Below, one piece after another: positions 270 through 20,359 of a stretch of DNA of 64,000 nt (positions within the stretch are counted from its first letter, which is position 1; every line of letters starts with the position of its first letter). The position numbers and the translations under genes were made by a program. Location: NCBI GenBank assembly GCA_037441525.1, contig JBBISA010000001.1, forward strand, positions 151,198-215,197, written 5' to 3'. Source of the DNA: Bacteroidota bacterium. Its GTDB lineage: Bacteria > Bacteroidota > Bacteroidia > Bacteroidales > UBA7960. Below the pieces are notes generated by a model, which saw nothing but the letters and a program-made list of their open reading frames with translations, was not told where the DNA came from and made no database searches.

Positions 270-680
270 CTAATGCGGTTCTTTCATAAATTTTTCAAGG
301 GATTGTTCTCCAAAATAATCCTTGAACTGATCGGTAACACTTTTTACCATACCTCCCATTAAGCACTTATCAAATGGGCAAATCTGACGGTCGAGTGGAC
401 ATTCAGGTGAGTCAATTTTTCCCTCGATAGCTTCATAAATATCTAAGAGAGTGAGACTTGCAGGATTTACATTAAGCACAAATCCACCACTTGGTCCTCT
501 TACAGACCGAAGGTAGTTTTGCTTAACGAGCTGTTGCAGCACTTTTGCCAGGTGATTTCGTGAAGCGCCCATTTCACGGGCAATAATATTAACATTGATA
601 TGCGAATCTGATTGAGCTATCAGAACCATCGCATGAATTGCCAGAGATGCTGCTTCAGAAAGGTGGACTATTTTTGCCAT
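270..680 (-). CDS. Rrf2/BadM-family transcriptional regulator, probably Fe-S binding
   Basis: 136-aa ORF. It has an N-terminal winged-helix region typical of Rrf2 (SRNHLAKVLQQLVKQNYLRSVRGPSGGF). A C-terminal Cys triad, CPLDRQICPFDKC (C-x6-C-x4-C), resembles the IscR/NsrR cluster ligands. Confidence 0.85.
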   Translation of the reverse strand: MAKIVHLSEAASLAIHAMVLIAQSDSHINVNIIAREMGASRNHLAKVLQQLVKQNYLRSVRGPSGGFVLNVNPASLTLLDIYEAIEGKIDSPECPLDRQICPFDKCLMGGMVKSVTDQFKDYFGEQSLEKFMKEPH

Positions 681-748
681 AGTATGCGGTAATTCTTTAA
701 TTGTGGATACAGATATGTATAAGTGATTTGATTATTCTAAATTAGTAA

Positions 749-1000
749 TCAGAAAGCCATTTTCCTGACCATTACATCATTCATCTGAAGTATTTCATTT
801 TCAAGTCTGAGGCATTCTTCCCTGTCGCCCATTAGTTCGAGCAGAATTAATCCTGCACTGCCCTGGTTGGGAATATCGAGCTCGTTCAACCCAATACGGG
901 TTTTAATAGTGCAACCATACTTACTGAAAATTTTCTGAAGTTTCAGTGCATTTTTTTCTCTTTCTTTTACCAGTACCCCCAGTATAACAAGCTGTTCCAT
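749..1000 (-). CDS. TM1266-like small putative iron-only hydrogenase system regulator (ACT/NikR-C-like fold), paralog B
   Basis: 83-aa ORF with the pattern ILGVLV...TRIGLNEL...GLILLEL.GD...C..L. This matches my recollection of the TM1266 family found next to hydEFG genes. It lies next to hydG. Confidence 0.65.
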   Translation of the reverse strand: MEQLVILGVLVKEREKNALKLQKIFSKYGCTIKTRIGLNELDIPNQGSAGLILLELMGDREECLRLENEILQMNDVMVRKMAF

Positions 1001-1046
1001 AGTTTATTGTGTTTAGGTTAAAAGATTTAGTGCCTGTATTAGGGTT

Positions 1047-1298
1047 TCAGAGCTTGCTGAATTGCATTGTTTTTACTTCTACTCCACCAATGAATTCAAG
1101 TTCCTTTTGAAGCTGATTGCATTGGTCAGGGTCGCCCTGCAACACAAGGAGTATTGTTCCTACCCGGCTGCATCTTTCACGCGATAATTCATGAAATCCC
1201 AATCTTGTTCGGATTAATGATCCGTAACGGGTTAAAACTTCCTGAGTTCTTCCTGCTTCCTTTATGCGGTCGTAGACCATTATTCCCAATATTTTCAT
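1047..1298 (-). CDS. TM1266-like small putative iron-only hydrogenase system regulator, paralog A
   Basis: 83-aa ORF, the same length and the same conserved pattern as 749..1000 (ILGIMV...TRLGFHEL...GTILLVLQGD...C..L). It lies directly downstream of hydG. Confidence 0.65.
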   Translation of the reverse strand: MKILGIMVYDRIKEAGRTQEVLTRYGSLIRTRLGFHELSRERCSRVGTILLVLQGDPDQCNQLQKELEFIGGVEVKTMQFSKL

Positions 1299-1545
1299 GC
1301 GAATAAAATTAGTTTAAGTTATTGGTAAGATAGCTTGTCCATCTGGTGCACTAAATGGCCTTATTAATTCTTTTTTCTGCCTGTAGAAAAGTATGTTTCA
1401 TTCGAAAATAGTTTTAATGTGGCATAATTGAACCCGCATGATAAAGTTTTATCCATACTCGCTTTTGGCGAATCATGCCCGTTTTCTGTCCATTGCAAGG
1501 TTTTTATCAATTTCTTTTCATTTTAGTTAAACATAATCGCACACC

Positions 1546-2973
1546 TTAGAAATACAAATCGCGCCGGCCTTCCCTGATAAACTGAAGCTTCTCTTTGAGA
1601 TTTTCTATGCTTTGATGAGCCTGCAATTCGTTAAGTTTTTCATCAATAAGTCTGTAACCTTGTTCTTTGGTTGCCGGCGGGGCATAATCTTCAAGATATT
1701 CGGCCATGGTAAGCAAGGCATTGGGCGAACAAAAACGTTTTATAAAACCCGGAACTGAAAACTCCATAAAGTGTTCGCCGGTTCTGCCAAGACGATAACA
1801 TGCAGTGCAGAATGAAGGGATGTAACCGGTTGATATCAACTCGTCCATAATTTCGTTCAGAGAACGATTGTCGTTTATCTGGAATTGCTCCATGGTAAGG
1901 TCCTGATTTTCTCGCTTCCCTTTGGAGTAACCGCCCAATTCTAGATTAGTGCCACCATCAATTTGCGAAACGCCAAAACGTAAAACCTGATCGCGAATGT
2001 TTGCAGGTTCGCGTGCAGTAAGTATCATACCGGTATATGGCACTGCAAGGCGCAGAATAGAGACAAGCCTTACAAACTCATCATCCTTTACAAGGTGGCT
2101 ATGGTCGATGTTAAGGTCCAGTGCATTCTGGATACGCGGAAAACTGATGGTATGAGGGCCAACATTATAAACTGCTTCGAAATGGTTTACATGTCTTACA
2201 AGTCCCATTACTTCGAAACGCCAGTCGTACAGCCCAAACAATGCCCCGATACCTACATCGTCGATACCTGCTTCCTGAGCTCGGTCGAGTGCGGTTAAAC
2301 GCCACTCATAATTGCGCTTTACTCCGCCCAGGTGAACCTTAGCATAGGTAGGTTCGTGATAGGTTTCCTGAAAAATCTGGAAGGTGCCAATTCCTGAGTC
2401 CTTTATGGTTCTGAAACCAGGAATATCGAATGGCGCGGCATTGATGTTAACCCGCCTAATTTCACCATTGATGTGTTTTACTCCATAAACAATTCGAACG
2501 GTTTCGGCAATAAATTCAGCCGAATACTTAGGATGCTCTCCATATACAAGAATAAGTCGTTTGTGCCCCTGATCAATAAGAGCAGTGGTTTCCTGTTTAA
2601 GTTGCTCCTCGTTAAGGGTTATCCTTTTCATCCCTTTGTTTTCGGACCTGAACCCGCAATACTGGCAATTGTTGGTGCATAGGTCGCCCACATAAAGAGG
2701 GGCAAACAAAACAATACGTTCGCCATAAACTTTCTTTTTGAGGGTACGTGCGCCCTCTTTGATCTCTTCTACAAGGTCGGGATCGGTGGCATTGATCAAT
2801 ATTGCTGTTTCCTCGAGGGAGAGTCTTTTCTTGTCGAGCGAAGCCTGAATAACTTCGCGAACACGACTTTTATCAGTCTTTATGGTATTAATGTAGCTCC
2901 AAATCTCATTGGGGTCGATAAAAGGTTTCATCCTTTCATCGCGAATTTTATATATTTCGGGGTGGTATATCAT
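1546..2973 (-). CDS. hydG: [FeFe]-hydrogenase H-cluster radical-SAM maturase HydG
   Basis: 475 aa. It has the radical-SAM motif CTNNCQYC (C-x3-C-x2-C). It also has the HydG-specific C-terminal motif C-x2-C-x22-C (CTACYRLGRTGEHFMEFSVPGFIKRFC), which distinguishes HydG from ThiH. The length is typical for HydG. Confidence 0.9.
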   Translation of the reverse strand: MIYHPEIYKIRDERMKPFIDPNEIWSYINTIKTDKSRVREVIQASLDKKRLSLEETAILINATDPDLVEEIKEGARTLKKKVYGERIVLFAPLYVGDLCTNNCQYCGFRSENKGMKRITLNEEQLKQETTALIDQGHKRLILVYGEHPKYSAEFIAETVRIVYGVKHINGEIRRVNINAAPFDIPGFRTIKDSGIGTFQIFQETYHEPTYAKVHLGGVKRNYEWRLTALDRAQEAGIDDVGIGALFGLYDWRFEVMGLVRHVNHFEAVYNVGPHTISFPRIQNALDLNIDHSHLVKDDEFVRLVSILRLAVPYTGMILTAREPANIRDQVLRFGVSQIDGGTNLELGGYSKGKRENQDLTMEQFQINDNRSLNEIMDELISTGYIPSFCTACYRLGRTGEHFMEFSVPGFIKRFCSPNALLTMAEYLEDYAPPATKEQGYRLIDEKLNELQAHQSIENLKEKLQFIREGRRDLYF

Positions 2974-3053
2974 GCCATTTAAGTAATTCGGTAATTAAGA
3001 TACAAAAATACGGAAATTTGATTCCAGCTTGTGTTAACATTAGTATAATTCTT

Positions 3054-3863
3054 TTAGGTTGACTGAATTTTACTGGTAGAAATTACTTCCGGGGCCAGGT
3101 AGTCAAGTTCAACAGTCAATCCGTCGTAAGCAAGAAAAACATTGGAAGGCAGGGATTGCTGTATCGTTTTATGGATTCCGATGAAGTGACTCAGATGGGT
3201 TATGTAGGCTTTCCCGGGATTGATTTCGGCTATTACTTCAAGGGCCTCTTCCAAAGAAAAGTGGCTGATATGTTTCGATTTTCGCAAGGCGTTGATAACG
3301 AGAATTTCAGAACCTTTCAATTTTTCCTTTTCCTGGGGCGAAATATAATTGGCATCGGTGATATAAGAAAAATTGCCAATGCGGAAACCAAAAACCGGCA
3401 ATCTGTGATGCAAAACTTCGATGGGCATGAACTCTACCCCTTCGGCAAAAAAACTTTCGTTGCCGATAATATGAAATTCGAGCTGGGGGGCTCCAAAGAA
3501 TCGTTTTTCGGTAAATATATAAGGAAACTCGCGATGAATGGAATCGATCACTTCCTGACTGGCAAATATGTCTACGGTTTTATTCAATACATAATTGAAT
3601 GCTCTCACATCGTCGAGACCTGCAATATGGTCGCGGTGCCCGTGGGTAAAAATAATGGCAGTAATATCATCTACTTTCTCTCTGATCATCTGATACCTGA
3701 AATCTGGGCCGCAATCGATAACAAAATTATGTCCTCCCACCTTAATAAGCACCGAAGTACGCAGCCGCCGGTCGTGGGGATCGGCACTGCTGCACACATC
3801 GCAATTACAGGCAACAACCGGCACCCCGGTTGATGTGCCGGTGCCCAGAAAAATTACTTTCAT
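3054..3863 (-). CDS. MBL-fold metallo-hydrolase (PhnP-like)
   Basis: It has the HxHxDH motif (THGHRDH) and an N-terminal GTGTSTGVP...CNCDVC motif. The start was moved to the internal ATG (MKVIFLGTG) at 3863. A paralog lies at 47825..48598. Confidence 0.8.
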   Translation of the reverse strand: MKVIFLGTGTSTGVPVVACNCDVCSSADPHDRRLRTSVLIKVGGHNFVIDCGPDFRYQMIREKVDDITAIIFTHGHRDHIAGLDDVRAFNYVLNKTVDIFASQEVIDSIHREFPYIFTEKRFFGAPQLEFHIIGNESFFAEGVEFMPIEVLHHRLPVFGFRIGNFSYITDANYISPQEKEKLKGSEILVINALRKSKHISHFSLEEALEVIAEINPGKAYITHLSHFIGIHKTIQQSLPSNVFLAYDGLTVELDYLAPEVISTSKIQST

Positions 3864-3899
3864 TTTGTTGCCTGCAATCATAATCAAGGGGTATTTGCA

Positions 3900-4871
3900 T
3901 TAATAGATTAACTCGTCAACATCTTCTCTTGCTTCAATCACTTCATCATTATCAATAGTAAAATCGTAAAATATCTCGCTCCCCTTTATTTTCTTATAAA
4001 ATAAAATTGAACCTTTTTCTCCTTCCAAATTGTGTTTGTCATACAAGAGTGAAAAATCAATTACAGGTTGTCCATTGGTTTCAGAAATTACAGTCATCGA
4101 TTTAAGCATTTTGCCATTTACCAGTAGATTGGTGGCATAAATTCCTTTGGGAGGTATCAGTTTTTCTTCTTCTTCAATGGACATATTAAAATACCTGCCC
4201 CTCGCTCCAGACAGCACAGGACTCACATTATCAGTAATATTGCCAGTTATAATGTATTGATAGTCTAGGTAAGCGTTAGCCCTCATAATATTGCCTTCGA
4301 GAAGGGCTTTTCTGATTTTGGTTGAGCTTACGGTCTCATTCTCAATATCTTTAAGCGGAATATCTTCTACCTTAAAACCCATTTTGTTGCTAAGATCATA
4401 CAGATAGGAAAAATCGCCCGAACGGTTGTAACCGAAATGGTGGTTGTGGCCCACAATAATAACTCGGGCATCCAGATGCCCGATAAGTATTTTTGTTATA
4501 AAATCGTGGGATGAAGTTTTGGAAAATTCTACCGAAAACGGTATAATGACGAGGTTATCGAGCCCGGTTTGGGAAAGCAATTCTATTTTTTCTTCCTGCG
4601 AATTAATTAGTTTTAGGTCTTTCTGGTCGGGATATAGCACCTTTCTGGGGTGCGGATGGAAAGTTACCAGGCATGAATGGCCATTGATTTCCCGGGCAAG
4701 ATGATTCAACCTGTCAATTATGGTTTTGTGCCCTATATGCACGCCATCGAACGATCCGGTTGTGACAACGGTATTTCTGATTATTCCGGCAGCTTCCAGT
4801 GTATCCTTAAAAACTTTCATGTGTGCAGGTTTGGTGGTGCATATAAAATGTTGATTCAAAGATAATTCCAT
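3900..4871 (-). CDS. ribF: Bifunctional riboflavin kinase / FAD synthetase
   Basis: It has the N-terminal nucleotidyltransferase motif GSFDGVHIGH and a C-terminal riboflavin kinase domain, at about 320 aa. Its ATG overlaps the rex stop codon (TAATG), although an internal start at 4820 is also possible. Confidence 0.9.
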   Translation of the reverse strand: MELSLNQHFICTTKPAHMKVFKDTLEAAGIIRNTVVTTGSFDGVHIGHKTIIDRLNHLAREINGHSCLVTFHPHPRKVLYPDQKDLKLINSQEEKIELLSQTGLDNLVIIPFSVEFSKTSSHDFITKILIGHLDARVIIVGHNHHFGYNRSGDFSYLYDLSNKMGFKVEDIPLKDIENETVSSTKIRKALLEGNIMRANAYLDYQYIITGNITDNVSPVLSGARGRYFNMSIEEEEKLIPPKGIYATNLLVNGKMLKSMTVISETNGQPVIDFSLLYDKHNLEGEKGSILFYKKIKGSEIFYDFTIDNDEVIEAREDVDELIY

Positions 4872-5518
4872 TAGTGATTATCGGGCTCATGCTTTACCAT
4901 GAAAGCAAGTTTTTCGAGGGATGTAATGATGTCGTATTCCACGAGGTAGATATTTTCGGGAACAGTAAGGGGTACTGAAGTATAATTAAGGATGCCTTTT
5001 ATTCCGGCATTTATAATCAATCGGGCTGCTTCGTGCGCGCCTTCGGGCGCTACAGTAAGTATAGCTATTCTGATGTCTTCCTTTGGGGCTATTTCGGCGA
5101 TTGAATGGATGTGGTGGCAGGGCACCCCGGCAATGATGCGTTTGGTTTTCTGGGTGTCATTATCGAAGGCAGCTACAATCGACAGGCGGTCTCTTTTTCC
5201 GGAAAAATAACTCGTAATGGCCCGACCCAGATTTCCCATCCCCACAATAGCCACATTCAGGGGCTTGTCACTATCTATAATACTGCCAATAAGCTTTACA
5301 AGGTCTTTGATGATGTAACCTTTACTTTGGCTTCCTGAATAGCCAATTAGCATAAGGTCGCGGCGCACCTGCACAGATGTAAGGTTCATCATTTTGGCAA
5401 GCTCATGGGAGTATACGTTGGCTTTGCCCTGGTTGATTGTGTTGTATAGTATTCTACGATATTGGCTTAACCGTTCGATAGTTTTACCGGGTAGTTCATG
5501 TATTTTTTTGGAATCCAT
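4871..5518 (-). CDS. rex: Redox-sensing transcriptional repressor Rex
   Basis: 215 aa. It has an N-terminal winged helix (ERLSQYRRIL...SHELAKMMNLTSVQVRRDL) and a Rossmann NAD(H) fold (VAIVGMGNLGRAI). Confidence 0.9.
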   Translation of the reverse strand: MDSKKIHELPGKTIERLSQYRRILYNTINQGKANVYSHELAKMMNLTSVQVRRDLMLIGYSGSQSKGYIIKDLVKLIGSIIDSDKPLNVAIVGMGNLGRAITSYFSGKRDRLSIVAAFDNDTQKTKRIIAGVPCHHIHSIAEIAPKEDIRIAILTVAPEGAHEAARLIINAGIKGILNYTSVPLTVPENIYLVEYDIITSLEKLAFMVKHEPDNH

Positions 5519-5553
5519 TTAATATTGTTTTGTGTTGAGTATGTTTTTCATAT

Positions 5554-6678
5554 TTAGTTGGCAGGAAACTTAAGGGTAAATGTACTTCCTGCATCGGGTT
5601 TGCTCTCTACCTGGATGGTGGCGTTGTATAGGTCGGCAATTTTCTTTACCAAAGAAAGGCCCAAACCTGTTCCGCTGATGTTTTTGGTTTGCTCGCTTTT
5701 TATGCGAACAAACTCTTCAAAAAGTTTTTCTATATCCTCTTCCTTCATCCCTATACCTGTATCAGTAACACTTAATAGCACCGAGTCATCGTCATCTTTT
5801 CTGATGTCTATATCTATTCGACCACCATTTTTGTTGTATTTCACAGCATTTGATACAAGATTATTGATTACAATCTCCAATTCCTGACGGTCGGCTCTGA
5901 GAGAGATATTTTCGTTGCAGTTGAGATGGATGTCAACATCTTTCTGGATACTCATGGGTTGCATGATATCAATGGATTGCCGGGCGATTTCGCTTAAAAA
6001 AACAGTTTTAATGTTGCGTGCTTTTTTGCCTGATTCGATGCGGGTAAAGTCGAGAAGATCAAGGATAAGGTTTCGCATTTCCTGCACTCTGGCCATGCTC
6101 CGGTTTATCATTTCAGTATAATCGCCCAGGTAGGGACCATTTCTTTTTTCAAGCATCAGTTTCAGGTAACCTTCAACCGCGTTGAGAGGTGATTTTAACT
6201 CGTGCGAAAGCACTGAAAGAAACTGAAAGCGTATTTGCTTGCCTTCTTGTTGCATTTTGGCGGTTATACGCCTTAAAAAGAGTTGTTTTGCAATATTTTC
6301 GAGACAACTACGAAGCTCTTTTGGGGTAAATGGTTTGGGTACAAAATCGTATGCGCCGCTTTTGGTAGCCTTTACGGCCATATCGAGTGATGCATAAGAA
6401 GTAATCATAACCACTATTGCTTCAAGGGCCTGAGAATTAATATATTCAAGAACTTCAATTCCTTGAATCCCTGGCAGTTTGTTATCGAGAAGAACTATAT
6501 CGAAAATATAGTTGTCGAGCAATTCAATGGCTTCTTCCCCGCTTTCGGCTTCATGCACTTCAAACTCAAAATCTTCATCCATAAAGGGATAGCTGACTGA
6601 AAAACTTTCCAGTATGCGCTTTATTCCACTCCTGATTCCCAATTCATCATCAACTACCAAAAGATTGAGTTTGCCCAT
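5554..6678 (-). CDS. Receiver-histidine kinase fusion (REC-HisKA-HATPase)
   Basis: The N-terminal REC domain shows LLVVDDE...DIVLLDNKLPG...KPF. The H-box is SHELKSPLNAV, the N-box is NAVKYN, G1 is DTGIGM and G2 is GTGLGL. There is no transmembrane segment and no DNA-binding domain. Confidence 0.85.
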   Translation of the reverse strand: MGKLNLLVVDDELGIRSGIKRILESFSVSYPFMDEDFEFEVHEAESGEEAIELLDNYIFDIVLLDNKLPGIQGIEVLEYINSQALEAIVVMITSYASLDMAVKATKSGAYDFVPKPFTPKELRSCLENIAKQLFLRRITAKMQQEGKQIRFQFLSVLSHELKSPLNAVEGYLKLMLEKRNGPYLGDYTEMINRSMARVQEMRNLILDLLDFTRIESGKKARNIKTVFLSEIARQSIDIMQPMSIQKDVDIHLNCNENISLRADRQELEIVINNLVSNAVKYNKNGGRIDIDIRKDDDDSVLLSVTDTGIGMKEEDIEKLFEEFVRIKSEQTKNISGTGLGLSLVKKIADLYNATIQVESKPDAGSTFTLKFPAN

Positions 6679-6687
6679 GCCAACCGA

Positions 6688-7086
6688 TTATATTTTGAGA
6701 AGTTTATTGATTTCCTTTTGCAACTGGTCCATCCTGATACCTTTATCCAGAAACATATCGGCCTTGATCCACTCCCGGTTTTCATCCGATTCCACATCGA
6801 AAAGAAGTCCTGTTTCGGCGGTTACTGCCGAAGCAATAATGATTGGAATATCGGGGTATTTGTTCTTTATAATATGGCACAGAATAAAACCTGTATCCTG
6901 GTTTTCCATCATCAAATCGAGGATAGCCAGATCGGGCTTCATTTTCTCAATAAAATCAACTGCTTCCTTTTGCGACGATGCTTCTGTTACATTAAAACCC
7001 ATATCGTTTAGCGCTATACCGAGCTGAAAAAGGTAATCTGGGTCATCGTCAACAATAAGAATTTTCTTTTTTTCTATTTTTAGCAT
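6688..7086 (-). CDS. Single-domain response regulator (REC only)
   Basis: 132 aa with KILIVDDDPD...DLAILDLMME...DKG. No output domain is present. Confidence 0.85.
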   Translation of the reverse strand: MLKIEKKKILIVDDDPDYLFQLGIALNDMGFNVTEASSQKEAVDFIEKMKPDLAILDLMMENQDTGFILCHIIKNKYPDIPIIIASAVTAETGLLFDVESDENREWIKADMFLDKGIRMDQLQKEINKLLKI

Positions 7087-7120
7087 TTTACCTTAGTTTT
7101 TACAAGTCCTTTTTATTTTT

Positions 7121-9151: not shown

Positions 9152-9199
9152 TGAGTTATTATTCTGAGCAATTCAATCGAAACGCCTTTAAATAATTGA

Positions 9200-10915: not shown

Positions 10916-10920
10916 AAGGG

Positions 10921-12870
10921 TTAATCGACTATAACAGCATTAAACTTACACACCTCAAAACAGGCATTACAGGCAATACATTTATCCTGCACAATAAAAT
11001 GTGGTTGCCGCGGAGAACCAATGATGGCATCCACAGGGCACTTTTTAAAACATGCTGTGCAACCGGTACACATATCCACATCAATGTTGTAGGTTCTGAG
11101 TTCGCGACATACCCCAGCCGGACATTTCCGCTCGAAAACATGTGCGTCGAACTCAGTTTTAAAGTTCGACAAAGTGTTGAGTATGGCATTTGGTGCCGAT
11201 TTGCCAAGAGAGCACAAACTTGAGTCCTTCATTACATCGGCCATATTTTTTAAATGCATTATGCCCTTGAAACGCTCAAGGGTTTGAAACGCATTTTCCT
11301 TCGAAGGCCTGCGGGTTGCTGATTCCACAATTTCGAGCATCAATGCTGTACCTTCGCGGCATGGAATGCATTTTCCGCAACTTTCATTTTTAAAGAAAGC
11401 CGTAAAAAAACGGGCCAGATCAAGCATACAACTGTCTTGGCCTACTACCACACAGGCTCCGCTTCCAAGTTGTGAACCCACCGAACGCAATTCCTGAAAA
11501 TCCACACGCGTATCAATAGTTTTTTCGGTGATATAACTCCCACTGTTTATACCCAGGATGATTGCTTTAAAGGGTGCAACTCCTTTCATGCCACCTCCGA
11601 TTTCTTCAACAATGGTCCTGAAGGTTATTCCCATTTCAACTTCAATGGTGCCATACCTCATTACTTTTCCGCTGAGGGTAAATAGCTTGGTACCTTTGCT
11701 TACCTTATTGCCGATGGTTTTAAACCAATCAGGCCCGTTTTTAATGATCAACGGCACATTTATAAGAGTTTCCAGATTGTTTACAATGGTAGGTTTATTC
11801 CATAAACCCTTTATTGCCGGGAAAGGTGGCTTGTAAACCGGCATCGCTCTTTTTCCTTCAATACTGTTTATCAGCGCGGTTTCTTCTCCGCACACAAAGG
11901 CCCTGGCTCCTTCTTTCACAATCACATCAAGGTTAACACCCGATTCAAAGATGTGATGCCCGATAATTCCAAACTCCCGGGCTTGTTTTATTGCTTCATT
12001 AAGTCTTTCAATTGCCAGTGCAAACTCGCCCCGGGTAAAGATGAATGCCTTGGAGGCTCCTATGGCGTAGGAAGCTATTAAAAGTGCCTCAATTAACTTG
12101 TGAGGATTGCTTTCCATTATCACCCTGTTCATATAACTGCCAGGGTCGCTTTCAACGGCATTACAAACGAAATACTTCTGGTCGCTCACCGCATTGAGCG
12201 ATATTTTCCATTTTTTACCGGCAAGAAAAGCTCCTCCGCCCCTTCCGGCAAGTTCACTCTCTTCAACAATATCGCATACCTGTGAGGGAGTATGGTGGGT
12301 AATTGTATCAGCAAAAGCCTGATAACCTCCTTTTGCAATGTATTGTTCTATCGAAACAGGGTCAATAATGCCACAATTTGCAGTAAGGATTTTTTTCTGT
12401 GGTGCAAAAAATGGCAAATCATTCATAAAAGGAACACCTTCCCAGAGTTGGTGCAATTCGTTGCGGTATTGCCCCAACACATGCTTTTCAGGGAGATTGT
12501 TATTGAGAATTTCATCCAAAAAAGATGGAACATCATCTTTGTAAACATTATGAAATGAAATTCTGGCCTTTCCCGGAAGTTGAATATCTACAATGGGCTC
12601 GGCAGCACAGAAACCGTTACAACCTCCTTTTATAAGGTCAATGTTCAGTCCGTTATCCGCAATGTACTTTTCAATTGCCAGGTAAGTTTTCAGCGCACCC
12701 GCAGCAACACCACAGGTTGCAGTGCCTACAAAAATCAACGGATTAGAAATGCGTTCAAGGGCAATATAAGACAGTTGCCTGGCAATAGCAGGGTCAGCAT
12801 CCCTTTGGGGATTAAGCAGAACCTTTTCGATAAGATACTGCTTTATTTGGGCAGGATCATTAATTTTCAT
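10921..12870 (-). CDS. hydB: NADH-binding flavoprotein subunit of the hydrogenase (NuoF-like)
   Basis: 649 aa. It has an FMN/NADH region (GRGGGAFLAGKKW), the N3-type cluster motif ESCGKCIPCREG, an N-terminal thioredoxin-like Cys motif (GGCNGFCAAEP) and a C-terminal 2x[4Fe-4S] ferredoxin (CTGCTACFKKCP, CIACNACFEVC). Confidence 0.9.
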   Translation of the reverse strand: MKINDPAQIKQYLIEKVLLNPQRDADPAIARQLSYIALERISNPLIFVGTATCGVAAGALKTYLAIEKYIADNGLNIDLIKGGCNGFCAAEPIVDIQLPGKARISFHNVYKDDVPSFLDEILNNNLPEKHVLGQYRNELHQLWEGVPFMNDLPFFAPQKKILTANCGIIDPVSIEQYIAKGGYQAFADTITHHTPSQVCDIVEESELAGRGGGAFLAGKKWKISLNAVSDQKYFVCNAVESDPGSYMNRVIMESNPHKLIEALLIASYAIGASKAFIFTRGEFALAIERLNEAIKQAREFGIIGHHIFESGVNLDVIVKEGARAFVCGEETALINSIEGKRAMPVYKPPFPAIKGLWNKPTIVNNLETLINVPLIIKNGPDWFKTIGNKVSKGTKLFTLSGKVMRYGTIEVEMGITFRTIVEEIGGGMKGVAPFKAIILGINSGSYITEKTIDTRVDFQELRSVGSQLGSGACVVVGQDSCMLDLARFFTAFFKNESCGKCIPCREGTALMLEIVESATRRPSKENAFQTLERFKGIMHLKNMADVMKDSSLCSLGKSAPNAILNTLSNFKTEFDAHVFERKCPAGVCRELRTYNIDVDMCTGCTACFKKCPVDAIIGSPRQPHFIVQDKCIACNACFEVCKFNAVIVD

Positions 12871-13366
12871 AGTCTGTTTCTGGATTTTGCCTGAAATAAC
12901 TGATTAAGTTTTTTACTGAATCCAAATCCAGGTTGGTATAGTATTGCTGGTTAATTTCAATAACCGGGGCAAGTCCGCAGGCCCCAATACATGATACTAC
13001 CTCAAGGCTGAACAAGCCTGATTTGTCAGTTTCGCCACTTTTAATTTTCAGGTGTTTTTCCAGTTCGGTCAATATGTTTGAAGAACCAGCAACATGGCAG
13101 GCAGTACCGTTGCACAGCCTGATATGATATTTTCCCTTGGGTCCGAACCTGAAATTATCATAAAATGTAGCTACCCCAAAAATTTTGTTAACAGAAATAT
13201 CGAGGTACTTTCCCACATGAATAATGATCTCTTCTGATAAAAATCCGAAATGGTCCTGAATTTTGTGCAACATGGGGATCAGATCGTCGCGTTGTCGGTT
13301 GGGAAATTGTTCAAAAATTACCGAGAGTTTCCTATCCATGGGTGTGTGTTGATAAATTCTTAACAA
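12860..13366 (-). CDS. hydC: [2Fe-2S] thioredoxin-like subunit of the hydrogenase (NuoE-like)
   Basis: 168 aa with the NuoE Cys pattern CNGTACH...SCIGACGLAPV. It overlaps hydB by 11 nt. Confidence 0.9.
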   Translation of the reverse strand: MLRIYQHTPMDRKLSVIFEQFPNRQRDDLIPMLHKIQDHFGFLSEEIIIHVGKYLDISVNKIFGVATFYDNFRFGPKGKYHIRLCNGTACHVAGSSNILTELEKHLKIKSGETDKSGLFSLEVVSCIGACGLAPVIEINQQYYTNLDLDSVKNLISYFRQNPETDYEN

Positions 13367-13447
13367 TGAAAGACAGGGTTATATTTAGCTGCTCCAGGGT
13401 TTGATAAATAAGCTGTTATACTGATCATAACCTTCAGGCAGTTGCCA

Positions 13448-13455
13448 CAAATATA
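13448..13455 (-). promoter_or_regulatory. Candidate Bacteroidota -7 promoter box (TATATTTG) for hydCBA
   Basis: The minus strand reads TATATTTG, matching the TAnnTTTG consensus. It lies about 80 nt upstream of the hydC ATG. Confidence 0.35.
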
Positions 13456-13593
13456 AGAAAAATTATAAGTGCCAAGGGTTTATTTAAGGGGCAATCAGGC
13501 CAATTTAGACTTAATCTGATTCAGCATTAAGTGCCCGGGATATTTTGCTGTGAAGTTATTAGCATTTTAACCCGTAGATAATTGGATTATAGT

Positions 13594-13601
13594 TAATTTT
13601 G
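13594..13601 (+). promoter_or_regulatory. Candidate Bacteroidota -7 promoter box (TAATTTTG) for the ferredoxin/hydS/phosphatase operon
   Basis: It matches TAnnTTTG and lies about 60 nt upstream of the ATG at 13663. Confidence 0.35.
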
Positions 13602-13615
13602 TGAAAAAAATAACA

Positions 13616-13631
13616 GGTGAATAGGTTCACC
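13616..13631. promoter_or_regulatory. Candidate Rex operator (GGTGAA-TAGG-TTCACC)
   Basis: The 6-nt arms are perfect inverted repeats with 4-nt spacing. This matches the core GTGAA-N4-TTCAC of the Rex consensus TTGTGAA-N4-TTCACAA. A TTGTGAA half-site also lies at 13599..13605. The palindrome is immediately downstream of the putative -7 box. Confidence 0.5.
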
Positions 13632-13662
13632 ACACAACCAGCATGTAATTCCACTTTCGCTG

Positions 13663-13923
13663 ATGGTACAAAACGTTCAAACAATAGTAATATGTATGGG
13701 GAGCAGTTGCTTTTCGCGAGGCAATAAGAAAACGGTTGCATTTTTACAGCAATACCTTAAAGATCGAAAGCTTGAAGACCATGTTACTCTTAAAGGGGCA
13801 CATTGTATGGGGCATTGTGAGAAGGGCCCTGTAATTAAACTGGATAATGACTTATTTTTTTACTCCGATCAACAAAAACTTGAGGCCTTACTTGATAAAG
13901 CATTTAATGTTAAAGGAGCCTAA
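13663..13923 (+). CDS. Small thioredoxin-like [2Fe-2S] ferredoxin
   Basis: 86 aa. The Cys pattern is C-x4-C ... C-x3-C (CMGSSC ... CMGHCEKGP), typical of the NuoE-C-terminal/thioredoxin-like ferredoxin fold. Confidence 0.75.
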   Translation: MVQNVQTIVICMGSSCFSRGNKKTVAFLQQYLKDRKLEDHVTLKGAHCMGHCEKGPVIKLDNDLFFYSDQQKLEALLDKAFNVKGA

Positions 13924-14107
13924 AATCTATACCATATTACATAGCGGAGTATCAGGGTACGAAAACTTAAATTACCAAGGCTTTAATTATGAAACGAAAA
14001 TATTTGCCAAAGAAAACAATCGGGTTTGCGAGCTCAACAAAATTAAACCTCCATCAAAATTGCAAACATGGAGTTCCATCAGACCTTTTAAAGAAAAATC
14101 CTGACTG

Positions 14108-15964
14108 ATGAAACTTATATCAATCGACCTCGATAAGTGTAATACTTCTTATGCCTGTGTAAGGGCATGCCCGGTAAAGGCTATTACCATCAATAAAAAA
14201 ACTGACCTTCCTGAAGTTAATCACGATCGATGCATAGGATGTGGTGGTTGTCTTGGGGTATGCCAGGCTGGTGCAGTATCATATAAAAGTTCAATAGATG
14301 AAACCCTTGAACTGCTTAAATCTGACCAACAGGTGGCTGCTATTGTTGATCCCAGCATCAGCGGCGAATTTCCGGATATAACCGATTACCGCAGATTTGT
14401 TGAAATGATTAGGGTTTTAGGATTCAACTATGTTAATGAGGTTTCCTTTGGTGTAGATTTGGTGGGTAGGGAATACAACAACCTGTTTACCAACTTTCGT
14501 GGGAAATATTACCTTACATCCAATTGTCCAACAGTAACAGCATACATTGAAAAGTTTTTTCCCGAAATGATCAACAATCTCAGTCCTATTGTTACCCCTA
14601 TGACCGCAACGGCTATGGTGGTAAGAAAGCTTTACGGGAAAGATATAAAGGTTGTTTTTATTGGTCCGTGCATATCGGCAAAGCACGAGGCAATCCGTCA
14701 TGATGGTGAAGCAAAAGTTGATGCAGTGCTCACCTTCCAGGAATTAAGGGAACTTTTTTCACGATTCAATGTAACGGAATCGAAAGTGGAATACTCCGAT
14801 TTTGACAAACCCATTGGCAACCTGGGATCACTTTATCCACTGAGTCGCGGAATACTCGCAGCGGCCGGCCTGGTCGAAAACCTGCTTGGTTCCGATATTT
14901 TTACTGCATCCGGAGCCGGAAACATCCTTGATGCTGTTCAGGAGTTTCATGCCAGGCCAGAAGCGGTAAAAAAACACTTCAATCTTTTTTATTGCGAAGG
15001 ATGTTTAATGGGCCCAGGTACCAGCAACACCAGCCATAAATTTCTCAGAAAAACCCTGGTCGTTGATTATTCACGCAAACGTCTTGAAAAATTTGACGAA
15101 CCAGAGTGGAATAAATACATGGCTGAGTTTTCTGAATTGCAACTTTCGCGTATATTTCTAAACGACGACCAACGCCTTGAAATGCCCTCAGATGACCACA
15201 TTGAAGAAATCCTTAAATCAGTAGGCAAAACACCCAACGAAAAAGGAGCATGTAGCGCTTGCGGATTCAGATCGTGCCGTGATTTTGCCATTGCGGTAAG
15301 CCAGGGCCTTTCAAAACCCGATACATGTCTTACATGGTCGCTCAAAAATAAACAGGATTACATTAAAACCCTGAAAACCAATAACGAAAAACTAAGGAAA
15401 CAACAGATTGAAGCAGAGGAAAACCAAAAACTTCTGAAGGCTGAAAATCAAAAAATCAAAATAAAGTCTGATACTATCTCCTCTTTGTTGCAAAATTTAC
15501 CCTCTGCAGCCGTTATTGTTGACGAAAAACTTAAGGTAATAGAATCTAATCAGTCATTTATCAATATCTTAGGTGATGATGCAAAACTTATAAACGATGT
15601 TATTCCCGGATTAATAGGGGCTGATCTTAAAACTCTCCTGCCCTATAATATCTATAATCTTTTCAGTTTTGTGCTTCAGAAAGATGAAAACATTATTAGC
15701 CGTGATATCCATTTTAATGATGGTTTGTTGAATATCAGTGTATTTTCATTAAAACCAAACAAAATTGTTGGTGCGGTATTAAGAGATATGTATGTTGCTG
15801 AAGTGAGGCAGGAAGAAATTATAAACCGTGTCAATGAAGTGATAGATGAGAACCTGAAAATGGTTCAGCAAATTGCCTTTTCGCTGGGAGAAGGGGCATC
15901 GAAAACGGAAAAAATGCTCAATTCAATAATTGAAACATACAAAAAAATTAAAAAGGCTGATTAA
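14108..15964 (+). CDS. Sensory-type [FeFe]-hydrogenase-like protein with C-terminal PAS domain (HydS-like)
   Basis: It has two N-terminal 4Fe-4S motifs. The H-domain carries sensor-type variants (TSNCP, GPCISAKHE, YCEGCLMGPG). The C-x2-C-x4-C-x16-C motif is present (CSACGFRSCRDFAIAVSQGLSKPDTC). A coiled coil and a PAS-like C-terminus follow (LPSAAVIVDEKLKVIESNQSF...). Confidence 0.85.
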   Translation: MKLISIDLDKCNTSYACVRACPVKAITINKKTDLPEVNHDRCIGCGGCLGVCQAGAVSYKSSIDETLELLKSDQQVAAIVDPSISGEFPDITDYRRFVEMIRVLGFNYVNEVSFGVDLVGREYNNLFTNFRGKYYLTSNCPTVTAYIEKFFPEMINNLSPIVTPMTATAMVVRKLYGKDIKVVFIGPCISAKHEAIRHDGEAKVDAVLTFQELRELFSRFNVTESKVEYSDFDKPIGNLGSLYPLSRGILAAAGLVENLLGSDIFTASGAGNILDAVQEFHARPEAVKKHFNLFYCEGCLMGPGTSNTSHKFLRKTLVVDYSRKRLEKFDEPEWNKYMAEFSELQLSRIFLNDDQRLEMPSDDHIEEILKSVGKTPNEKGACSACGFRSCRDFAIAVSQGLSKPDTCLTWSLKNKQDYIKTLKTNNEKLRKQQIEAEENQKLLKAENQKIKIKSDTISSLLQNLPSAAVIVDEKLKVIESNQSFINILGDDAKLINDVIPGLIGADLKTLLPYNIYNLFSFVLQKDENIISRDIHFNDGLLNISVFSLKPNKIVGAVLRDMYVAEVRQEEIINRVNEVIDENLKMVQQIAFSLGEGASKTEKMLNSIIETYKKIKKAD

Positions 15965-16023
15965 ACAGAGATTGTCAAATTAAAGATATGACATCTAATG
16001 GGTTTATTCGCAATCACATATAA

Positions 16024-17205
16024 ATGGACGAATCGTTTTACATAGAAGTTGGAGTAAATCAGAAAAGCCATTTTGGCGAACGGATTTGTGGTGATGTTTT
16101 CCTTTCGAGAAAGGTTAAGGAGGAAAACAGGACAATTTTGGTACTTTCGGATGGTATGGGTCATGGTGTTAAAGCCAATCTTCTTGCCACTCTTACCGCC
16201 ACTATGGCTCTGAATTTTACCGTTGAGCATAAAGATGTCCATAAAATTGCCGAAATCATTATGAATACCCTGCCCGTTTGCAGCGAGCGAAAAATCAGCT
16301 ATTCCACATTCACAGTGGTTGATATTGAAAGTACCGGACAAACAACCATAATTAATTACGACAACCCCGAGTGCATAATTTTGCGAGGTGAGGAACTTCT
16401 CAAATCCCAATGGCATACCATAACCCTCGAAACAGAATCGCAAAACAAGGAAATCAGAGCATGTACCTTTAAAGCAAAGAAAGAAGACCGGATTATATTG
16501 CTTTCTGACGGCATCACACAATCAGGGCTTGGAAAAGGCAAATACCTACTGGGTTTTGGTTTGGAAAATACTCGCGAATTAGTTTTGTCCAAATTAAAGG
16601 AAAATGCGTCCATTTCTGCCGTAAAACTCTCAGGTGCTCTGGTTAGCAAAGCTCATAGCAACGACGATTATCAACCAAAGGATGATATAAGCACTGTTGT
16701 TGTTTACTTGCGCGAACCCCGAAAATTATTGCTTTGCTCAGGTCCACCCTTCGATACGGCCAAAGATGAATACCTGGCAAACAAAGTAAGAGACTTTAAC
16801 GGGAAAAAAATTTTATCCGGTGGCACCACTGTGGATATTGTGGCGCGTATTCTTAATACTTCTGTAGAAGATACGCTTGAATTCAACGATCCTGATTTGC
16901 CCCCGCTTTCCTACATGGAGGGGATAGACCTTGCCACTGAAGGCATTTTAACCCTGAGCAAGGTGAGTAATATACTCGAAAAATTCAATGAACGTACCGA
17001 ACTTGGCAGAGGCCCTGCAGACCTTATAGTTAAGATGCTGCTCGAAAGTGATGAAATTTACCTGTGTATCGGCACCGCAATTAACATAGCGCATCAAGAC
17101 CCCAACCTTCCGGTTGAATTAGAGATTCGAAGAAGTGTAGCAAGAAAACTATCAATTCAGTTAGAAGAGAAATTTCTTAAGGAAGTTTTTATTGAATTTA
17201 TATAG
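16024..17205 (+). CDS. PP2C/SpoIIE-family serine phosphatase with an uncharacterised ~160-aa C-terminal domain
   Basis: It has the motifs GDVF...LVLSDGMGHGVKA and ILLSDGITQSG, which carry the metal-binding Asp residues of SpoIIE-type PP2C. It lies 60 nt downstream of the hydS-like gene. Confidence 0.85.
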   Translation: MDESFYIEVGVNQKSHFGERICGDVFLSRKVKEENRTILVLSDGMGHGVKANLLATLTATMALNFTVEHKDVHKIAEIIMNTLPVCSERKISYSTFTVVDIESTGQTTIINYDNPECIILRGEELLKSQWHTITLETESQNKEIRACTFKAKKEDRIILLSDGITQSGLGKGKYLLGFGLENTRELVLSKLKENASISAVKLSGALVSKAHSNDDYQPKDDISTVVVYLREPRKLLLCSGPPFDTAKDEYLANKVRDFNGKKILSGGTTVDIVARILNTSVEDTLEFNDPDLPPLSYMEGIDLATEGILTLSKVSNILEKFNERTELGRGPADLIVKMLLESDEIYLCIGTAINIAHQDPNLPVELEIRRSVARKLSIQLEEKFLKEVFIEFI

Positions 17206-20324: not shown

Positions 20325-20359
20325 GGCCTTCGATGAAATATTTGAAGGCCATTATTTTT
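20325..20359 (+). terminator. Intrinsic terminator after the hybrid kinase gene
   Basis: The hairpin GGCCTTC-N12-GAAGGCC is followed by ATTATTTTT. It lies inside the 5' extension of the ribD ORF, which supports the downstream ribD start. Confidence 0.6.

What the first reader, a model, noticed from the sequence alone, without database searches (positions are those of the whole stretch)
270..17205. HydABC-type [FeFe]-hydrogenase embedded in an unusually dense, multi-input regulatory island
Within 17 kb the sequence encodes hydC-hydB-hydA, a NuoE/F/G-like architecture characteristic of NAD(H)/ferredoxin-coupled, probably bifurcating, enzymes. It also encodes nine regulatory proteins:
- two paralogous H-cluster-domain sensor proteins;
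- a receiver-only protein;
- a REC-kinase fusion;
- Rex;
- a PP2C phosphatase;
- two TM1266-like small regulators;
- an Rrf2 Fe-S regulator.
hydG and a small 2Fe-2S ferredoxin are present as well. On the minus strand, hydC through the MBL hydrolase (13366 down to 3054) is co-directional, with gaps of at most ~50 nt or with overlaps. The gaps are: hydC/hydB an 11-nt overlap, hydB-hydA 5 nt, hydA-hydS 48 nt, hydS-REC 34 nt, REC-REC/HK 9 nt, then 35 nt, and a TAATG overlap between rex and ribF. Rex, the FAD synthetase and the sensors therefore look co-transcribed with the enzyme they presumably control. Each sensor type has been noted separately in genome surveys. The combination of an H2-type sensor feeding a phosphorelay, a second H2-type sensor paired with a phosphatase, and an NADH sensor at one hydrogenase locus is not a circuit I know to be characterised.
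Basis: partly seen in the sequence, partly recalled or inferred. Interest (0 to 1): 0.7.

Follow-up and report, generated by a model that had tools for sequence, protein, structure and literature searches.

The report
Hydrogenase operon with built-in H2/NADH sensors
An uncultured Bacteroidales genome carries a NADH/ferredoxin-type iron hydrogenase operon that also encodes a hydrogen-sensor kinase, two receiver proteins, the NADH sensor Rex and a second sensor with a phosphatase; this gene layout recurs in many genomes and was noted in a 2024 survey, but nobody has tested how it works.

Summary
One correction: the first sensor is itself fused to a histidine kinase.

- **Sensors.** Both keep the four H-cluster cysteines and the C-terminal Cx2Cx4Cx16C motif. 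Both lack the proton-relay Cys299 and Met353/Met497, as published group C sensors do.
- **Linkage.** In 80 related genome loci, mostly Bacteroidota and Planctomycetota with single loci from other phyla, hydC-hydB-hydA-hydS(kinase)-REC-REC/kinase is almost invariant. Rex occurs in 54 of 73 loci and the Fd-HydS2-PP2C module in about half.
- **Rex operators.** Rex-type sites (TGTKA-N6-TMACA) are about 140-fold enriched upstream of these operons. The window has three.
- **Prior work.** HydDB defines kinase- and phosphatase-linked sensor subtypes. A 2024 survey described hydCBA plus a kinase-type sensor and noted a second sensor in Bacteroidota.

It is therefore a new member of a known, biochemically uncharacterised kind.

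Points I did not find discussed in the papers I read:
- The REC and REC-kinase pair is always linked.
- No DNA-binding response regulator occurs where Rex is present; a NarL-type one occurs where Rex is absent.
- HydA active-site residues have drifted in two-sensor lineages (here M353S, P354A, K358N, E282R).

The parts
12860..13339 (-). hydC, NuoE-like [2Fe-2S] subunit. The ORF extends to TTG 13366; the likely start is ATG 13339.
   Evidence: Pfam 2Fe-2S_thioredx, 163 bits. Called as 159 aa in relatives L082 and L083.
10921..12870 (-). hydB, NuoF-like FMN/NAD subunit with a C-terminal 2x[4Fe-4S] domain and an N-terminal Cys-rich extension.
   Evidence: Pfam Complex1_51K, NADH_4Fe-4S and Fer4_21. 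NuoF-family NCBIfam match, 425 bits.
9200..10915 (-). hydA, M3-type H-cluster subunit with an atypical second sphere (M353S, P354A, K358N, E282R).
   Evidence: Best solved relative is the T. kivui bifurcating HydA1, 8a6t (405 bits). Residue table. Below the NCBIfam group A cut-offs.
7121..9151 (-). hydS-HK: 2x[4Fe-4S], a sensor-type H-domain, the Cx2Cx4Cx16C cluster (C387-C412), a coiled coil, HisKA (His459) and HATPase.
   Evidence: Pfam. Motifs. His459 and N569 are invariant in 81 sequences.
6688..7086 (-). Stand-alone receiver protein (D13, D14, D57).
   Evidence: Pfam Response_reg. Present in 79 of 79 loci. The Asp residues are invariant.
5554..6678 (-). REC-HisKA-HATPase hybrid with no sensor domain (D65, T93, K115, His159).
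   Evidence: Pfam. Present in 75 of 76 loci. All sites are invariant in 77 sequences.
4871..5518 (-). rex, the NADH/NAD+-sensing repressor.
   Evidence: NCBIfam Rex, 200 bits against a cut-off of 126. The GxGxxG motif is conserved. Present in 54 of 73 loci.
3900..4871 (-). Divergent RibF-like protein: strong FAD-synthetase domain, weak riboflavin-kinase domain. Overlaps the rex stop codon.
   Evidence: Pfam FAD_syn 162 bits, Flavokinase 19.9 bits. Below all NCBIfam RibF cut-offs. Present in 39 of 69 loci; median approximate Rex-RibF gap is -20 nt.
3054..3887 (-). MBL-fold hydrolase of the PhnP/Apyc1-like type.
   Evidence: Pfam Lactamase_B_2. NCBIfam PRK02113, 291 bits, below its cut-off. Linked in only 15 of 68 loci.
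1546..2973 (-). hydG, an H-cluster maturase.
   Evidence: TIGR03955, 502 bits against a cut-off of 312. Present in 41 of 63 loci.
749..1298 (-). Two TM1266-like/CPF_0552 small proteins (749-1000 and 1047-1298).
   Evidence: Present in 16-18 of 61 loci.
270..680 (-). Rrf2-family regulator.
   Evidence: Pfam Rrf2, 94.5 bits. Linked only in the closest relatives, 4 of 60 loci.
13350..13365 (-). Imperfect Rex-type site, TGTTAAGAATTTATCA, 11 nt upstream of the hydC ATG.
   Evidence: A similar site (right half departs from T[AC]ACA by one base, two in L002/L008) sits at the same position in L002, L003, L008, L082 and L083.
13448..13455 (-). Candidate Bacteroidota -7 promoter element, TATATTTG, for hydC.
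   Evidence: Read from the sequence. The block cttatatttgtg is conserved in L082 and L083. The promoter consensus is from my own knowledge.
13594..13631 (+). Candidate -7 element TAATTTTG (13594-13601) overlapping two abutting Rex-type operators: TGTGAAAAAAATAACA (13600-13615) and GGTGAATAGGTTCACC (13616-13631).
   Evidence: This is the only exact GTGAA-N4-TTCAC in 64 kb. Motif enrichment across loci. Sequence.
13663..13923 (+). Small thioredoxin-like [2Fe-2S] protein.
   Evidence: Pfam 2Fe-2S_thioredx. Present in 30 of 63 loci, always next to HydS2.
14108..15964 (+). hydS2: 2x[4Fe-4S], a sensor-type H-domain, the Cx2Cx4Cx16C motif and a weak PAS-like C-terminus.
   Evidence: Pfam. PAS hits at E about 0.006. 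39% identical to HydS-HK over 440 aa. Residues.
16024..17205 (+). PP2C (SpoIIE/RsbU-type) phosphatase with an unidentified conserved C-terminal domain (about residues 234-393).
   Evidence: Pfam SpoIIE. AF2 model with pLDDT 83. Foldseek hits to SpoIIE, RsbU and RsbX cover only the N-terminal domain.
17550..20282 (+). PAS-PAS-HisKA-HATPase-REC-Hpt hybrid kinase. Membership of the system is doubtful.
   Evidence: Pfam. Adjacent only in close relatives L002, L082 and L083.

Best explanation
The locus is one member of a conserved supra-operon. An NADH- and ferredoxin-coupled (HydABC, group A3-like) [FeFe]-hydrogenase is encoded together with its own input sensors.

1. **Rex input (inferred).** At a low NADH/NAD+ ratio Rex binds three operators in the 296-bp divergent region. 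Two abut at 13600-13631 and overlap the predicted promoter of fd-hydS2-pp2c. One lies in the hydC leader at 13350-13365. Bound Rex represses both transcripts. NADH accumulation releases Rex. Because rex lies inside the hydC operon, it autoregulates.
2. **HydS-HK relay (inferred).** HydS-HK binds an H-cluster with a slowed, sensor-type pocket. H2 reduces its Fe-S chain, including the C-terminal Cx2Cx4Cx16C cluster. That cluster sits about 45 residues before the phospho-accepting His459. Its redox state is proposed to switch autokinase activity. Phosphate then passes to the stand-alone REC (Asp57) and/or the REC of the REC-kinase (Asp65), which gates a second kinase. The final target lies outside the cluster or is reached by protein contact.
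3. **HydS2 module (inferred).** HydS2 (PAS-type) works with the small [2Fe-2S] protein and controls the SpoIIE/RsbU-type PP2C. This gives a second, Ser/Thr-phosphate output.
4. **Support genes.** HydG, the TM1266-like proteins and the RibF-like protein supply cofactors and maturation.

**Shown:** gene content, motifs, conserved synteny, operator enrichment. **Inferred:** H2 responsiveness, direction of kinase control, Rex binding, all targets.
For: - Domain architecture.
- HydA is closest to the solved bifurcating HydA subunits 8a6t, 7q4v and 7p5h.
- Sensor-type residues with intact cluster ligands. They match the published group C/D description.
- Linkage counts: HydC 65/65, HydB 65/66, HydA 72/73, REC 79/79, REC-HK 75/76, Rex 54/73, with median gaps of 7-58 nt.
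- Phospho-acceptor His and Asp residues are 100% conserved.
- Rex-type operators: 51 sites in 22.9 kb upstream of the operons against 20 in 1.27 Mb elsewhere. Of the 66 loci scored, none of the 19 in which no rex gene was found has a site; some of those are truncated.
- The only exact GTGAA-N4-TTCAC in the 64-kb window lies in the hydC/fd intergenic region.
- The PP2C N-terminal domain folds like SpoIIE, RsbU and RsbX.
- Rex-less relatives carry a NarL-type response regulator directly upstream of hydC, which fits a transcriptional output for the relay.
Against: - There is no expression or biochemical data for any member of this cluster type.
- No DNA-binding response regulator is encoded in Rex-containing clusters, so the relay's output is unknown.
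- In the window the two perfect operators sit about 260 nt from the hydC ATG. They lie nearer the fd promoter, and the hydC-proximal site is imperfect.
- HydA lacks Lys358, which contacts the distal CN ligand. It falls below the NCBIfam group A cut-offs, so high-rate catalysis and bifurcation are not assured.
- The PAS assignment for HydS2 is weak (E about 0.006).
- The PP2C substrate and its C-terminal domain are unidentified.
Confidence: 0.6

Rival explanations
1. The H-domain proteins are not H2 sensors. They are either extra subunits of the HydABC complex (the 'BfuT' naming) or sensors of the ferredoxin/NADH redox pool through their Fe-S clusters. H2 itself is not the signal.
For: The survey paper names them T subunits of BfuABC. 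They carry three accessory [4Fe-4S] sites. The sensory role of group C enzymes is called putative throughout the literature. HydS2 lacks Lys358.
Against: All four H-cluster cysteines are kept across the sensor orthologues aligned (one HydS2 has Asp at C499), while only the catalytic-rate residues are changed. Characterised relatives TmHydS and TamHydS bind a functional H-cluster and react with H2. hydG is co-located. A kinase domain and a PP2C partner are signalling outputs, not electron-transfer modules.
Confidence: 0.2
2. The regulators are co-expressed with hydABC but act mainly on other genes, such as fermentation-product pathways, rather than on the hydrogenase operon.
For: In Thermoanaerobacterium, deleting the HydS homologue hfsB changes adhE expression and ethanol yield, while hydrogenase activity actually rose. 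No DNA-binding response regulator is encoded in the cluster. One further perfect Rex-type palindrome lies elsewhere in the window, at 45214-45229.
Against: Rex-type operators are concentrated at the operon's own promoter region in 41 of 66 loci. Linkage of the kinase sensor to hydA is near-absolute (72 of 73 loci). That is most simply explained by action on this operon, though it does not exclude wider regulons.
Confidence: 0.15
3. In this lineage HydABC is losing catalytic function, and the dense island is a relic of relaxed selection.
For: HydA carries M353S, P354A, K358N and E282R. In related two-sensor loci up to five of five canonical residues are replaced. HydA is the least conserved core protein, at 39-57% identity against 50-73% for HydS-HK.
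Against: All Fe-S and H-cluster ligands are intact in every orthologue. The ORFs are full length and the operon spacing is tight. K358N is kept in a 72%-identical relative, which argues for a maintained state and against recent decay. Natural M353T/G enzymes such as CpII and CpIII are active.
Confidence: 0.05

Closest known systems
'Sub-type V' BfuABC/HydABC cluster with a histidine-kinase-type group C3 sensor (BfuT), described in Hydrogenedentota and Caldithrix; Bacteroidota variant with a second bfuT (PMC11406978)
   Same: Gene order hydC-hydB-hydA followed by an H-domain protein that carries a kinase domain. A second sensor gene upstream of hydC in Bacteroidota. An M3a-type HydA.
   Different: That paper's text contains no occurrence of 'Rex' or 'response regulator', and the passages I read mention no PP2C, RibF or operators. 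It calls the meaning of two sensors unclear. The window is a different, uncultured Bacteroidales genome.
Putative sensory [FeFe]-hydrogenases TmHydS (M2f, group C) and TamHydS (M2e, group D)
   Same: N-terminal 2x[4Fe-4S], an H-domain with all Cys ligands, loss of Cys299, altered Met353 and Met497, and the C-terminal Cx2Cx4Cx16C motif. Encoded beside a bifurcating hydrogenase.
   Different: HydS-HK replaces the PAS domain with a directly fused HisKA-HATPase kinase. Neither protein here has been purified. No solved structure of any HydS was found by sequence search.
Solved electron-bifurcating HydABC of Thermoanaerobacter kivui, Acetobacterium woodii and Thermotoga maritima (8a6t, 7q4v, 7p5h)
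   Same: Three-subunit NuoE/F/G-like composition. HydA aligns over 530 residues (405 bits to 8a6t). HydB has a C-terminal 2x[4Fe-4S] domain.
   Different: The L2 motif is S-A-C-V-A-N-K instead of M-P-C-x-x-K-K, and Glu282 is Arg. The protein scores below the NCBIfam A6 and group A cut-offs.
Rex regulons that include hydrogenase genes: proposed Rex plus HydS control of Hnd in Solidesulfovibrio and of hydrogenases in Ruminococcus albus
   Same: A Rex repressor and a HydS-type sensor are proposed to control a bifurcating hydrogenase jointly. The operator core is TGTGA-N6-TCACA.
   Different: Here rex is inside the hydrogenase operon. Most Bacteroidota relatives use a variant half-site, TGTTA/TAACA, often as two sites 17 nt apart.
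Partner-switching PP2C phosphatases (SpoIIE, RsbU, RsbX)
   Same: The fold of the N-terminal domain (Foldseek E 6e-14 to 1e-10). A Pfam SpoIIE match.
   Different: No STAS or anti-sigma partner is encoded nearby. A conserved 160-residue C-terminal domain has no match so far.

Membership tests
Group A3-type (HydABC/BfuABC) [FeFe]-hydrogenase | HydA carries the four H-cluster cysteines (C300, C355, C499, C503) and the proton-relay C299. | tested here: met
   SSCCPSW, C355 and MACPGGC are present.
Group A3-type (HydABC/BfuABC) [FeFe]-hydrogenase | Canonical L2 motif MPCxxKK and the proton pathway E279/E282/S319/R286. | tested here: not met
   L2 reads SACVANK (M353S, P354A, K358N) and E282 is Arg. 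E279, S319 and R286 are kept.
Group A3-type (HydABC/BfuABC) [FeFe]-hydrogenase | NuoF-like HydB with an FMN/NAD site and a C-terminal 2x[4Fe-4S] domain, plus a NuoE-like HydC. | tested here: met
   Pfam Complex1_51K, NADH_4Fe-4S, Fer4_21 and 2Fe-2S_thioredx.
Group A3-type (HydABC/BfuABC) [FeFe]-hydrogenase | Score above the curated family cut-off. | tested here: not met
   NCBIfam A6: 530.6 bits against 765. TIGR02512 group A: 335 bits against 406.
Group A3-type (HydABC/BfuABC) [FeFe]-hydrogenase | NADH- plus ferredoxin-dependent (bifurcating/confurcating) H2 turnover. | not testable with these tools
   This needs the purified enzyme.
[quoted passage not shown] | H-cluster ligands are kept, but C299, M353 and M497 are replaced. 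| tested here: met
   HydS-HK has S, G and L at these positions. HydS2 has N, G and F. All four Cys ligands are present.
[quoted passage not shown] | N-terminal 2x[4Fe-4S] and the C-terminal Cx2Cx4Cx16C motif. | tested here: met
   Fer4 and PF04060 hits. The motif is present in both proteins and in orthologues.
[quoted passage not shown] | A signalling domain after the C-terminal cluster (PAS in the M2f type). | tested here: inconclusive
   HydS2 has only weak PAS hits, E about 0.006. HydS-HK has HisKA and HATPase instead.
[quoted passage not shown] | Placement in a HydDB subgroup (C1 or C3) by the curated classifier. | not tested
   HydDB is not available here. PMC11406978 reports that kinase-type T subunits classify as C3.
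Two-component phosphorelay | H-box His, N and G boxes in the kinases; acidic pocket and phospho-Asp in the receivers. | tested here: met
   His459 and N569 in HydS-HK. His159, D65, T93 and K115 in REC-HK. D13, D14 and D57 in REC. All are invariant across 77-81 orthologues.
Two-component phosphorelay | A cognate output response regulator. | tested here: not met
   No output-domain regulator is encoded among the conserved cluster genes here. A NarL-type regulator is found only in loci without rex.
Rex redox-sensing repressor | Winged-helix N-domain plus a Rossmann fold with GxGxxG, scoring above the curated cut-off. | tested here: met
   Pfam Put_DNA-bind_N and CoA_binding. NCBIfam 200 bits against 126. 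The Gly residues are conserved.
Rex redox-sensing repressor | Palindromic operator (core GTGAA-N4-TTCAC) at regulated promoters. | tested here: met
   Window sites at 13600-13631. About 140-fold enrichment upstream of the operons, and no site in the loci that lack rex. Binding itself was not tested.
PP2C (SpoIIE/RsbU-type) phosphatase | PP2C fold with conserved metal-binding Asp motifs. | tested here: met
   Pfam SpoIIE. Foldseek hits 5mqh, 3pu9 and 3ke6. D24, D43-G44, D162-G163 and D220-D221 are invariant in 41 homologues.

The most novel reading that the evidence does not exclude
The HydS-HK, REC and REC-kinase relay has no DNA-binding partner in any Rex-containing cluster. Rex-less relatives put a NarL-type regulator in the same place. 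The relay may therefore act at the protein level, on Rex or on HydABC itself, forming an H2 x NADH logic gate. In parallel, in the lineage that gained the second sensor, HydA has shed the canonical proton-relay and H-cluster-contact residues. HydABC there may have been retuned into a slow or high-affinity enzyme rather than a bulk H2 producer.
Probability: 0.2. Interest if true: 0.7.

Novelty: new member of a known kind. Interest (0 to 1): 0.45.

Why it matters
How anaerobes sense H2 through [FeFe]-type sensors is still an open question. The studied sensors (TmHydS, TamHydS) have no readable output.

A sensor fused directly to a histidine kinase gives a simple assay: autophosphorylation under H2 versus N2. 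Two always-linked receivers serve as candidate partners. The predicted Rex sites give a second testable input.

The cluster is widespread in Bacteroidota and Planctomycetota from sediments and digesters. It is therefore likely to set how these fermenters respond to H2 build-up and to syntrophic H2 removal.

The drift of HydA active-site residues in two-sensor lineages offers natural variants for asking which second-sphere residues a working H-cluster really needs.

Tried and rejected
- **ORF 13847-14104.** No family match even at E = 5. It is not called in relatives, where the Fd-HydS2 gap is only 64-93 nt. Treated as not a gene.
- **Sigma-70 promoter scan.** 44 sites found against 50.7 expected. 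It is uninformative, as expected for Bacteroidota. The one 'terminator' in the intergenic region (13616-13631) is the Rex palindrome itself.
- **Rfam scan.** It found only one tRNA.
- **Single-sequence AlphaFold of the PP2C.** It failed, with pLDDT 30. The alignment-based model was good. Foldseek matched only the N-terminal PP2C domain, so the C-terminal 160 residues remain unidentified.
- **Zheng et al. 2014 (R. albus HydS).** The paper was not held. I relied on secondary accounts.
- **hydE and hydF.** No hydE or hydF was found in the window. All ORFs of 242 aa or more, plus two shorter ones, were scanned; the remaining shorter ORFs were not.
- **Strict TGTKA-N6-TMACA motif.** It misses the closest relatives L002-L004 and L008. 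Their hydC-proximal site has a degenerate right half (TTACA or TATCA).
- **Hybrid kinase 17550-20282.** I considered it as part of the relay. It is adjacent only in the nearest relatives, so I left it as doubtful.

Full report
**Observation**

- **Minus strand.** hydC, hydB, hydA, an H-domain sensor, a receiver-only protein, a REC-HisKA-HATPase protein, rex, a RibF-like gene and an MBL hydrolase follow one another. Spacing is an 11-nt overlap, then gaps of 5, 48, 34, 9 and 35 nt, a 1-nt overlap and a 12-nt gap. hydG, two TM1266-like genes and an Rrf2 gene follow at wider spacing.
- **Plus strand, divergent.** A small [2Fe-2S] protein, a second H-domain sensor and a PP2C.

Three corrections apply:
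- The 676-aa sensor is itself a histidine kinase, with HisKA and HATPase_c at residues 450-668.
- hydC most likely starts at ATG 13339, as called in relatives.
- The ORF at 13847-14104 is probably spurious.

**Organism**

An identical sensor protein, and relatives at 65-83% identity, come from uncultured Bacteroidales assemblies. dnaA lies at 24198-25643.

**Are the two H-domain proteins sensors?**

I aligned them against canonical HydA sequences.

- Both keep the four H-cluster cysteines.
- C299 is replaced by Ser in HydS-HK and by Asn in HydS2.
- M353 is replaced by Gly in both. M497 is replaced by Leu or Phe.
- Both carry the C-terminal Cx2Cx4Cx16C motif.

This is the published signature of the putative sensory M2f/M2e enzymes. 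The two proteins are 39% identical over 440 residues. HydS2 ends in a weak PAS-like region. In HydS-HK a coiled coil runs from the last cluster Cys (C412) to the H-box His459. The condition that the sensors cluster with catalytic enzymes and keep intact catalytic motifs is not met.

**Is the linkage conserved?**

A profile-guided scan of one genome per species returned at least 586 confirmed relatives of the kinase-type sensor. I kept 80 loci. Most are Bacteroidota and Planctomycetota assemblies, with single loci labelled Hydrogenedentota, Myxococcales, Neomarinimicrobiota and others. tblastn mapping of all window proteins gave the counts below.

| Gene | Loci with it / loci with enough flank |
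|---|---|
| HydC | 65/65 |
| HydB | 65/66 |
| HydA | 72/73 |
| REC | 79/79 |
| REC-HK | 75/76 |
| Rex | 54/73 |
| RibF | 39/69 |
| HydG | 41/63 |
| HydS2 | 33/59 |
| PP2C | 28/51 |
| MBL | 15/68 |
| Rrf2 | 4/60 |

- Median gaps inside the core are 7-58 nt.
- Rex lies downstream of the relay in Bacteroidota and upstream of hydC in the Planctomycetota-type loci.
- All phospho-acceptor His and Asp residues are invariant.

The second refutation condition (no conserved linkage) is therefore not met either. Co-transcription remains an inference.

**Rex operators**

- The only exact GTGAA-N4-TTCAC in the 64-kb window is at 13617-13630, in the hydC/fd intergenic region.
- It is the second of two abutting 16-bp sites, TGTGAAAAAAATAACA and GGTGAATAGGTTCACC (13600-13631). 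They overlap a TAATTTTG element that fits the Bacteroidota -7 promoter consensus. That consensus is from my own knowledge.
- A third, imperfect site (13350-13365) lies 11 nt before the hydC ATG. A comparable site sits at the same position in L002, L003, L008, L082 and L083.
- Across 66 loci, TGTKA-N6-TMACA occurs 51 times in 22.9 kb upstream of the first operon gene. It occurs 20 times in the remaining 1.27 Mb.
- Planctomycetota-type loci use the canonical TGTGA/TCACA half-sites upstream of rex. Most Bacteroidota loci use TGTTA/TAACA, often as two sites 17 nt apart and 30-90 nt before hydC.
- None of the scored loci in which no rex gene was found has a site.

This supports Rex control, including autoregulation. 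Binding has not been shown.

**Output of the relay**

No DNA-binding response regulator is encoded in Rex-containing clusters. In Rex-less Bacteroidota loci a REC-GerE (NarL-type) regulator and an extra receiver sit directly upstream of hydC. All six hits for that regulator fall in loci where no rex gene was found. This suggests a transcriptional output there. It leaves the output here open.

**The enzyme**

HydA is closest to the solved bifurcating HydA subunits, at 405 bits to 8a6t. HydB and HydC have the expected domains.

HydA is nevertheless atypical:
- Its L2 motif reads S-A-C-V-A-N-K (M353S, P354A, K358N), and Glu282 is Arg.
- K358N recurs in a 72%-identical relative.
- The protein scores below the NCBIfam group A cut-offs.

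Across loci, deviation at E279, E282, C299, M353 or K358 occurs in 32 of 33 clusters with HydS2. It occurs in 2 of 24 clusters without HydS2 (Fisher p = 2e-12). Some two-sensor loci have lost all five residues, including C299 to Ala. The loci are related, so this is not a count of independent events. All cluster ligands are kept. Natural M353T/G enzymes are active. K358 contacts the distal CN ligand.

**PP2C**

An alignment-based model (pLDDT 83) matches SpoIIE, RsbU and RsbX phosphatases over the N-terminal domain only. The conserved C-terminal domain is unassigned.

**Comparison with the literature**

- HydDB defined kinase-linked, chemotactic and phosphatase-linked group C subtypes, all putative.
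- PMC11406978 described hydCBA followed by a kinase-type sensor. It noted that three Bacteroidota genera have a second sensor gene upstream of hydC, with unclear meaning. Its text contains no occurrence of 'Rex' or 'response regulator'.
- Joint Rex and HydS control has been proposed elsewhere.
- No HydS structure was found by sequence search.

**Verdict**

This is a real, conserved and well-read locus. It is a new member of a known but untested kind. hydE and hydF were not found in the window.

Noticed in passing
window 9200-10915 (HydA); loci L004, L018, L026-L033, L050, L051, L060, L065 and others: HydA of clusters that also carry HydS2 has lost canonical active-site residues. The window has M353S, P354A, K358N and E282R. 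Relatives go as far as C299A/D/N, M353T and K358M. Clusters without HydS2 are canonical (32 of 33 against 2 of 24).
   Followed up: partly
L070 4293-5720; also L010, L044, L046, L054, L076: Rex-less Bacteroidota versions of the cluster carry a REC-GerE (NarL-type) regulator and an extra receiver directly upstream of hydC. The regulator was not found in any locus that has rex.
   Followed up: partly
window 3900-4871: The RibF-like gene overlaps the rex stop codon. It has a strong FAD-synthetase domain but only a marginal riboflavin-kinase domain, and it scores below all NCBIfam RibF cut-offs. It is probably a specialised paralogue. ribD lies nearby at 20333-21418.
   Followed up: partly
window 16024-17205, residues about 234-393: The PP2C has a highly conserved alpha/beta C-terminal domain with no Pfam match and no separate fold match. 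One invariant block is GTAINxAHQDPNLPVELEIRR.
   Followed up: partly
window 45214-45229: A perfect Rex-type palindrome, TGTTATAAGAATAACA, lies inside the 5' end of a TPR-protein ORF (43804-45276, minus strand). It could be another Rex target or a chance match.
   Followed up: no
window 3054-3887 and 47825-48598: There are two MBL-fold (Lactamase_B_2) hydrolases in the window. The operon copy also matches the Apyc1-like family in precomputed Pfam hits, which hints at a cyclic-nucleotide or phosphodiester substrate.
   Followed up: no
Planctomycetota-type loci such as L005, L009, L011 and L080 (HydA): The L1 motif is TSCSPGW: the second Cys of the CC pair is Ser, as in the solved Acetobacterium woodii HydA1. 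In the Bacteroidota loci it is CC or xC.
   Followed up: no
window 24198-25643: dnaA is about 7 kb from the end of the hydrogenase island, so the locus lies near the probable replication origin.
   Followed up: no
window 13924-14107: The Fd-HydS2 spacer is 184 nt here but 64-93 nt in close relatives. The extra sequence holds only the unsupported 85-aa ORF.
   Followed up: partly
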